This document shows, piece by piece, positions 3,704 through 3,997 of a stretch of 64,000 nt of DNA (position 1 is its first letter; the number at the start of each line of letters is the position of its first letter). Under the pieces are notes generated by a model, which was given only the letters and a program-made list of their open reading frames with translations, was not told the origin of the DNA and did no database searches. The translations under genes were made by a program, and so were the position numbers. This DNA comes from Eledone cirrhosa (lineage: Eukaryota), in contig OZ024756.1 of NCBI GenBank assembly GCA_964016885.1, forward strand, positions 23,560,001-23,624,000, read 5' to 3'.

Positions 3704-3706
<3 letters not shown>

Positions 3707-3994
3707 CAAGGTTTAGCAAATAAGAAAAAGTTTTAAAATAAATTTTAAAAAATTCACTCTATCTGCTATGGTTACCTTTACCGAACGGTTTCGAGTCTCA
3801 AAAATAAATGGATAGTCCTTGCGGACCTCCATTGAAAAGAACCTTCTGACGAGAGTTTTTCTTTTCAATGGAGGCCCGCAAGGACTATCCATTTATTTTT
3901 GAGACTCGAAACCGATTCGGTAAAAGTAACCATAGCAGATAGAGTGAATTTTTTTAAATTTATTTTAAAACTTTTTCTTATTTGCTAAACCTTG

Positions 3995-3997
<3 letters not shown>
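3704..3997. mobile_element. Foldback (palindromic) hammerhead-bearing element in (TA)n, Penelope-pLTR-like
   Basis: ~138 bp near-perfect inverted arms (3704-3841 / 3859-3997) around a 17 nt loop that contains CTGACGA; (TA)n on both sides. Confidence 0.8.
3841..3927 (+). ncRNA. Type I hammerhead ribozyme (family C, long helix II)
   Basis: acctt-CTGACGA(3846-3852)-gagtttt...gagactc-GAAA(3908-3911)-ccg att cgg-TA(3921-3922)-aaagt. The inverted left arm keeps the perfectly pairing aaggt. Helix II extends as aatgga/tccatt and g(t/c)cc-GCAA-ggac. Cleavage triplet GUA. Confidence 0.85.

What the first reader, a model, noticed from the sequence alone, without database searches (positions are those of the whole stretch)
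3704..3997. 294 bp palindrome whose 17 nt loop is essentially the catalytic CUGACGA box
Seen: arms 3704-3841 and 3859-3997 are inverted with a few differences. The only unduplicated part is ccttCTGACGAgagttt, so only the + strand holds a full hammerhead. The left arm preserves better-pairing bases (aaggt in stem I, gtcc-GCAA-ggac in helix II), so it records the likely ancestral ribozyme. Helix II is unusually long (~55 nt) with a GNRA cap. Inference: the inversion point was set by template switching at the structured ribozyme during reverse transcription.
Basis: partly seen in the sequence, partly recalled or inferred. Interest (0 to 1): 0.7.

Follow-up and report, generated by a model that had tools for sequence, protein, structure and literature searches.

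The report
One-off fold-back in a hammerhead retrozyme
This mirror-image stretch is one broken copy of a very common 486-base jumping repeat that carries a hammerhead (self-cutting RNA) motif; it likely turned back on itself at a short hairpin already present in the repeat, but other copies turn at many other places, so the ribozyme does not set the turning point in general.

Summary
The palindrome is real (4 differences; loop 3842-3858). It is a fragment of a 486-nt tandem hammerhead retrozyme family (1,456 exact hits of a 22-mer) inserted in (TA)n. The hammerhead fold, with a 55-nt helix II, shows compensatory changes across copies. In 151 sampled loci, 52 are inverted head to head, mostly joining two fixed outer ends about 109 nt apart, as in a Hydra-type Penelope-like element of the same genome. 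Both arms match like copies of one template (5.2% apart vs 13.9% between loci). Ends lean instead to the cleavage site (21 vs 8.1; weak in the second sample). This copy most likely snapped back at a native 9-bp inverted repeat enclosing the box, also duplicating 21 nt of flank. The left arm keeps the family base in stem I, but its better-pairing helix II base is derived. Known kind, useful mechanistic footprint; no RNA or cleavage shown.

The parts
3520..3630 (-). Retrozyme piece from the second fixed end (site B, monomer position about 115) to the internal UAUAUA (site A); best read as the short second arm of the same insertion
   Evidence: (L001 segment 115 to 486)
3634..3654 (-). 21-nt inverted copy of the right flank (x); found at only two places in the genome
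3704..3841 (-). Left arm: reverse complement of the retrozyme 3' part (monomer 350 to end A); inferred DNA-templated copy of the right arm
3833..3867 (+). Native hairpin: 9-bp inverted repeat (3833-3841 / 3859-3867) closing the 17-nt loop; the turning point; predicted to hide the catalytic box in the RNA
3841..3927 (+). Type I hammerhead: stem I 3841-3845 / 3923-3927 (one C-A mismatch at 3925 in this copy), CUGACGA 3846-3852, helix II 3853-3907, GAAA 3908-3911, stem III 3911-3913 / 3919-3921, predicted cut after GUA at 3922
   Evidence: sequence, covariation in 127-133 loci; no Rfam hammerhead hit
3859..3997 (+). Right arm: retrozyme 3' part ending at the fixed end A, followed by (TA)n
4033..4217 (.). 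Unrelated inverted-repeat element of another abundant family sitting in the right-hand TA run; probably inserted later or skipped
4265..4285 (+). x in the right flank, the likely original of the inverted copy at 3634-3654

Best explanation
The palindrome is a truncated copy of a 486-nt non-coding hammerhead repeat (a non-LTR retrozyme), likely written into a (TA)n run by a Penelope-like reverse transcriptase, whose new DNA strand probably folded back at a 9-bp inverted repeat native to the element. Shown: family, tandem period, two fixed outer ends (A and B, about 109 nt apart), head-to-head inversion in a third of copies, scattered junctions, native inverted repeat, inverted flank copy. Inferred for the family: both ends of a DNA break prime on one circular or multimeric RNA, first at A and second at B, and the two cDNAs join at 0-3 nt overlaps. 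Inferred for this copy: the A-primed cDNA ran 165 nt through the ribozyme, paired its end with the 9-nt match 17 nt behind, copied itself back to A and on through the TA run and 21 nt of flank, then joined the short B-primed piece through TA pairing. The copy is predicted to be dead as a ribozyme, since any read-through RNA folds into one long hairpin.
For: Family size and period. Ends: 149 of 238 segments end at monomer position 6 and 52 at 98-122; inversion classes AB 36, AABB 1, AABo 1, Ao 7, Bo 5, oo 1, BB 1, pure AA 0 of 52. One template: inverted arms differ at 318 of 6,119 nt (36 pairs), tandem units within an arm at 318 of 6,453 (50 pairs), random pairs at 16,936 of 121,886. 53 of 201 arms are longer than one monomer. 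Junction: overlap 8 nt against consensus (9 in this copy's own alleles), second longest; 4 of the 54 other junctions exceed 3 nt. Flank copy unique. Copies that read through site A keep a 7-nt spacer in 80 of 81 cases, so later expansion there is rare. Same A/B layout (ends 92 nt apart) around a 540-aa ORF with the CxCX5C linker described for Hydra PLEs. PAc extends both strands from two internal start sites in vitro (PMC11167929). Folding: lock 0.98, stems I and II 0.0 for 3704-3997.
Against: No RNA, circle or cleavage was observed. No sequence link between the retrozyme and the L245 PLE (best BLAST E 0.05), and no copy continuous with a PLE ORF (13 of 151 loci have an ORF fragment nearby, none joined), so the mobiliser is inferred from layout. 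End A is partly selected by the search patterns. Two of the three arm differences outside homopolymers are alleles common in the family, which a pure self-copy does not predict. The element at 4033-4217 has no mirror image on the left, so it must be later or skipped. Only 2 of 201 arms exceed two monomers, so long rolling-circle products are rare in this family.
Confidence: 0.7

Rival explanations
1. Ordinary two-ended priming: one long B-primed arm (3520 to 3841) joined the A-primed arm at the 9-nt match, and the TA run with x entered the B arm later.
For: 36 of 52 inversions are A+B; 40 of 52 B arms read through site A; the piece at 3520-3630 is in register with the left arm; arm differences at common alleles would fit copying of two slightly different units.
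Against: Leaves the unique inverted copy of x unexplained; 0 of 81 read-throughs show such an interruption within 120 nt.
Confidence: 0.2
2. One reading: the folded ribozyme stalls the enzyme at the catalytic box and so sets inversion points.
For: This junction does lie at a predicted RNA hairpin around the box. Ends are enriched at another part of the ribozyme, 405-417 around the cut site: 21 of 190 vs 8.1 expected, scan-corrected p 0.016.
Against: Box 4 vs 3.3, 320-360 8 vs 8.0, helix II 12 vs 11.9 for inverted arms; non-inverted ends are depleted at 320-360 (3 vs 11.2); 1 vs 1,020 genome-wide. The cut-site excess is 14 of 98 vs 4.0 in the first sample but 7 of 92 vs 4.1 (p 0.11) in the second.
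Confidence: 0.05
3. The palindrome arose after insertion by DNA repair or replication template switching at the 9-bp repeat, with no part for reverse transcription, or is an assembly fold-back.
For: Short inverted repeats seed palindromes in DNA (established knowledge, recalled); short inverted flank copies bracket the element in 5 other of 151 loci, some without an inverted arm (L212).
Against: The left end continues into a piece ending at fixed site B, a mark of the insertion reaction. Arms differ by about 3%, like other loci, which an assembly chimera would not give.
Confidence: 0.05

Closest known systems
Metazoan non-LTR retrozymes (Cervera and de la Pena 2020, PMC7229834, parts 2-4 of 6 read; Li, Clavereau and Pollet 2026, bioRxiv 10.64898/2026.07.22.740005, parts 1-3 of 5 read)
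   Same: Non-coding tandem repeat, one type I hammerhead per unit, GC 37%, no ORF over 56 aa, over a thousand dispersed copies, short stem III.
   Different: Unit 486 nt (150-450 in the 2020 paper; within 51-972 of the preprint); helix II 55 nt, missed by Rfam; mostly truncated copies under 1.5 units; two fixed ends and head-to-head inversions, which I did not see in the parts read; a native hairpin predicted to hide the core, whereas the 2020 paper says most metazoan circles are predicted to leave the ribozyme free.
Penelope-like elements, Hydra clade and inverted pLTR / tail structure (Craig et al. 2021, PMC8557442, passages and section 11; Arkhipova et al. 2013, PMC3846280, passages; Frangieh et al. 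2024, PMC11167929, parts 1-2 of 4)
   Same: Head-to-head inverted 5'-truncated copy, extension at one end only, (TA)n targets, hammerhead upstream of the start site, palindromes at the inverted junction.
   Different: No ORF; extension about 109 nt rather than 30-40; start sites are AU-rich and can pair with the TA target, whereas PAc starts at sites not homologous to the target; the data point to two primings on one sense RNA rather than self-priming on an antisense template as proposed in 2013.
LINE-1 twin priming (recalled, not read)
   Same: Two cDNAs from both ends of a break joined by microhomology.
   Different: Here the arms overlap on the template by up to about 400 nt and the second end is fixed.

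Membership tests
Type I hammerhead ribozyme | Core CUGANGA, GAAA, UH | tested here: met
   All 12 core positions match in this copy; majority base 95-100% in the family.
Type I hammerhead ribozyme | Three helices, stem I open, supported by compensatory changes | tested here: met
   Stem I 334-413 TA 99 / CG 22; helix II 343-397 GC 93 / AT 20, 345-395 GC 101 / AT 11 / TA 5, 359-381 TA 85 / CG 32; stem III 127-131 of 133 paired. Counts are copies, not independent events. This copy has a C-A mismatch in stem I.
Type I hammerhead ribozyme | Match to an Rfam hammerhead model | tested here: not met
   No hammerhead family among 14 matches up to E 10 on 3820-3960; the long helix II is the likely reason (inference).
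Type I hammerhead ribozyme | Loop I / loop II tertiary contact | not tested
   Not examined.
Type I hammerhead ribozyme | Self-cleavage | not testable with these tools
   Indirect only: excess of 5' ends at 405-417; active stem I predicted above 0.5 in 1 of 55 circular monomers.
Non-LTR retrozyme | Short tandem repeat with one type I hammerhead per unit | tested here: met
   Period 486-487 in L004, L007, L013, L014, L021, L023; 53 of 201 arms exceed one unit.
Non-LTR retrozyme | Non-coding, GC under 50% | tested here: met
   GC 0.37, longest stop-free frame 56 aa in the L013 monomer.
Non-LTR retrozyme | Target-site duplication | tested here: inconclusive
   Hidden by (TA)n on both sides.
Non-LTR retrozyme | Expressed as linear and circular RNA | not testable with these tools
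   No RNA run available for it (see Tried and rejected).
Penelope-like element (autonomous) | RT and GIY-YIG ORF between pLTRs | tested here: not met
   No copy continuous with an ORF in 151 loci; no similarity to the L245 element.
Penelope-type insertion pattern | Head-to-head inverted truncated copy, extension at one end, (TA)n target | tested here: met
   52 of 151 loci inverted; ends at 6 and 98-122; same layout in the L245 family.

The most novel reading that the evidence does not exclude
The 9-bp hairpin at which this copy turned is a selected off-switch: it hides the CUGACGA box in the circular retrozyme RNA and competes with the long helix II, so an animal retrozyme blocks its own ribozyme by self-pairing; and the family's A/B ends with same-template arms are the in vivo record of a dimeric Hydra-type PLE enzyme copying one RNA circle from both ends of a break. 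Support for the switch: pair 326-354 is A-U in 104 and G-C in 19 of 130 loci although 354 is unpaired in the active fold (one lineage event among 33 diagnostic changes, roughly 3% by chance), and the hairpin is predicted above 0.5 in 19 of 55 monomers. Against: pair 325-355 is broken in 60 of 130 and 331-349 in 81 of 131.
Probability: 0.25. Interest if true: 0.7.

Novelty: new variant of a known kind. Interest (0 to 1): 0.42.

Why it matters
The single palindrome matters little: it is one damaged copy with a chance turning point. The family matters more. That Penelope-like elements mobilise animal retrozymes has been argued from co-occurrence and pLTR similarity; here the copies carry the Penelope insertion signature itself (two fixed ends, head-to-head arms), and both arms appear to come from one template that was copied twice over the same stretch, which favours a circular or multimeric RNA. 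It names an RNA, two start sites and a candidate enzyme clade for an in vitro test. Earlier notes of this scan report the same layout for other repeat families of this genome, so it is a further instance, not a first sighting.

Tried and rejected
Rfam on the whole window gave 469 matches, the 150 listed all microRNA families on simple repeats or the hairpin; on 3820-3960 no hammerhead. The repeat finder on 1-12000 was swamped by TA repeats. No RNA holder listed; this says nothing on expression. Contigs of three runs of one sample laid on 3500-4320 did not span the locus and were uninformative. Idea that the two arms come from two different RNA molecules: rejected for the family (47 of 318 arm differences at common alleles, against 38 of 318 in tandem units and 9,688 of 16,936 in random pairs); L037 is an exception. 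Idea that fold-back is the general route: inner ends within 40 nt of each other in 8 of 54 junctions, 9 expected. Idea of a retrozyme-PLE chimera at L147: about 70 nt of other sequence lie between them. Pfam found nothing in the L245 ORF and only a sub-threshold RVT_1 match in 1 of 4 homologues; PDB search found nothing; the Atlas gave no answer, so the Hydra label rests on motifs read by eye against section 11 of PMC8557442. ARAGORN: no tRNA in the window. L246 was fetched and not used. Dropped before counts: 8 duplicate loci among L032-L061, 22 duplicates among L114-L143, L196 (near duplicate of L195), segments under 25 nt, and A arms of 45 nt or less; L003-L030 were not used for breakpoint statistics because they were chosen by likeness to the right arm. 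Literature: 'retrozyme' with 'twin priming' 0 papers; with 'octopus' 2 listed; with 'cephalopod' and 'hammerhead' 1 listed; one search gave nothing on retrozyme inversions. Supplements were not read and may list this family.

Full report
1. Observation. The arms 3704-3841 and 3859-3997 are inverted copies with three substitutions (3746, 3776, 3825) and one 1-nt indel; the loop is 3842-3858. The box CTGACGA (3846-3852) makes up 7 of the 17 loop bases. The palindrome is flanked by TA runs. The host is a 3.0-Gb animal genome; named homologues of a PLE protein from it are from Argonauta hians, so an octopod is likely (inference).

2. The family. The right arm has 1,542 candidates in the genome (40 scored), and a 22-mer of its end has 1,456 exact hits, control 0. 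Several loci hold tandem units at 486-487 nt. The monomer has GC 0.37 and no frame over 56 aa. On the 486-nt monomer the box is at 336-342, GAAA at 398 and the predicted cut after 411. The hammerhead fold is supported by double changes in stem I and helix II (counts are copies, probably few events). Helix II is 55 nt. Its cap is GCAA 33, GTAA 26, GTAT 34, GCAT 21 in the ten commonest forms, so GNRA is not fixed. Rfam does not detect it. This meets the sequence-level definition of a non-LTR retrozyme (PMC7229834, parts 2-4 of 6 read); RNA and cleavage were not testable.

3. How copies are built. I sampled 151 distinct loci: 74 from the first 100 hits and 77 new ones from the first 100 hits. Of 238 segments, 149 end at monomer position 6 (site A, an internal UAUAUA) and 52 at 98-122 (site B). 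Site A is partly selected by the patterns. 52 of 151 loci hold head-to-head inversions: AB 36, Ao 7, Bo 5, and one each of oo, BB, AABB, AABo. B ends are in inversions in 46 of 52 cases. Overlapping inverted arms differ at 5.2% of sites, tandem units within an arm at 4.9%, random pairs at 13.9%, so both arms look like copies of one template. 53 of 201 arms are longer than one unit, 2 longer than two. Junction overlaps are 3 nt or less in 50 of 54.

4. Against an at-risk model of arm lengths, inner ends of inverted arms number 4 at the box (3.3 expected), 8 at 320-360 (8.0) and 12 in helix II (11.9), of 88. The junction of this copy occurs once in the genome, exactly and with a degenerate pattern, against 1,020 unrearranged sites. 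So the box is not a hotspot. The only excess is at 405-417 around the cut site: 10 vs 3.5 in inversions, 21 vs 8.1 in all 190 ends, p 0.016 after a sliding scan. It is strong in the first sample (14 of 98 vs 4.0) and weak in the second (7 of 92 vs 4.1, p 0.11), and some of these ends lie inside stem III rather than at the cut. I take it as a hint that some templates were self-cleaved linear RNA.

5. This copy. The junction is a 9-bp inverted repeat present in unrearranged copies (monomer 323-331 / 349-357), the only repeat of 8 nt or more with a loop under about 60 nt found in the monomer. Left of the palindrome lie a TA run, a 21-nt sequence x in reverse, and a retrozyme piece running from site A to site B. 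x occurs only twice in the genome, here and at 4265-4285. One event explains all of this: an A-primed cDNA folds back at the repeat, copies itself and 21 nt of flank, and joins the short B-primed piece by TA pairing (inferred). The alternative, a long B arm interrupted later, fits the commonest class but not x, and 0 of 81 read-throughs show such an interruption. Against the snap-back: two of three arm differences outside homopolymers are alleles common in the family, and the element at 4033-4217 has no mirror image.

6. Which arm is ancestral. At 3776/3925 the left arm has the family base (G in 201 of 211 pieces). At 3825/3875 none of the 20 nearest copies, ranked on sites shared by both arms, has the left arm's T. 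The stem III indel is undecided: both forms are family alleles, and tandem units of one insertion can differ there (L004). An RNA across the whole palindrome folds as one hairpin (-212.8 kcal/mol; stems I and II 0.0), and even the right arm with the upstream 9 nt prefers the hairpin (0.94), so this copy is predicted inactive.

7. The likely enzyme. A second hammerhead family in the window (30992-31425) has the same layout with ends 92 nt apart across the 31 loci (some are the same place twice), and one locus (L245) frames a 540-aa ORF between inverted repeats. Its RT-like motifs, CxCX5C linker and lack of CCHH match the description of Hydra PLEs, which target (TA)n and carry hammerheads (PMC8557442 section 11; motifs read by eye; Pfam silent; 1,174 homologues). 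Inverted truncated copies with a tail at one end are the known PLE signature (PMC8557442 and PMC3846280, passages), and PAc protein extends both strands from two internal sites in vitro (PMC11167929). There is no sequence link between the retrozyme and this PLE and no joined copy, so the partner clade is inferred.

8. Novelty. Retrozymes as PLE passengers are proposed in PMC7229834 and argued from phylogeny in bioRxiv 10.64898/2026.07.22.740005; in the parts read I saw no fixed double ends or inversions in retrozymes, and searches found none. Supplements were not read. Earlier notes of this scan (seen after my own analysis; unchecked) report the same layout for 311-, 422- and 467-nt families in this genome, and one reports a one-off turn at a ribozyme hairpin; look-ups by place and sequence found nothing on this family. 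The boldest reading left is that the 9-bp hairpin is an off-switch for the ribozyme (one compensatory change, A-U 104 / G-C 19; two of nine pairs often broken; predicted above 0.5 in 19 of 55 circles).

9. Verdict. Real palindrome; new variant of a known kind; turning point at the box is a one-off; interest 0.42.

Noticed in passing
window 30992-31425; L245:546-4603: Palindromic end fragment of a hammerhead-bearing PLE; one genomic copy frames a 540-aa Hydra-like ORF. Inner ends in this family cluster at reference positions 290-310 in many loci, unlike the retrozyme; the sample was selected on the adjacent 154 nt.
   Followed up: partly
window 5530-5690, 25532-25690, 59540-59660: Further minimal-hammerhead fragments (CTGATGA, short helix, GAAA) ending in TA runs; the first two resemble the 31.2-kb family.
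   Followed up: no
window 4033-4217 and 5752-5834: Another very abundant element with an inverted pair of arms and an extension on one side; related pieces lie beside the retrozyme in L003, L009, L027.
   Followed up: no
window 2642-2763 and 21257-21405: Small imperfect palindromes ending at TA runs, probably of the same origin.
   Followed up: no
window 11622-11812, 13167-13366, 36964-38017, 51733-51932, 54687-54876, 57041-57425, 61654-61846: About ten copies of a 185-200 nt dispersed repeat, 89-97% alike; resembles an octopus SINE (recalled, not tested).
   Followed up: no
window 14508-15668: Minisatellite with a unit of about 39 nt.
   Followed up: no
L094:915-1262, L212:354-848, L197, L033, L046: Inverted copies of flanking DNA bracket the element in 5 other loci; TA runs may seed such duplications.
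   Followed up: partly
L045, L100, L105, L195: Tail-to-tail pairs of site-A ends across one TA run, not explained by the A+B model; perhaps second insertions.
   Followed up: no
L037; L199: Arms (L037, 11 of 24 differences at common alleles) or tandem units (L199, 6 of 17) that look copied from two different subfamily templates.
   Followed up: no
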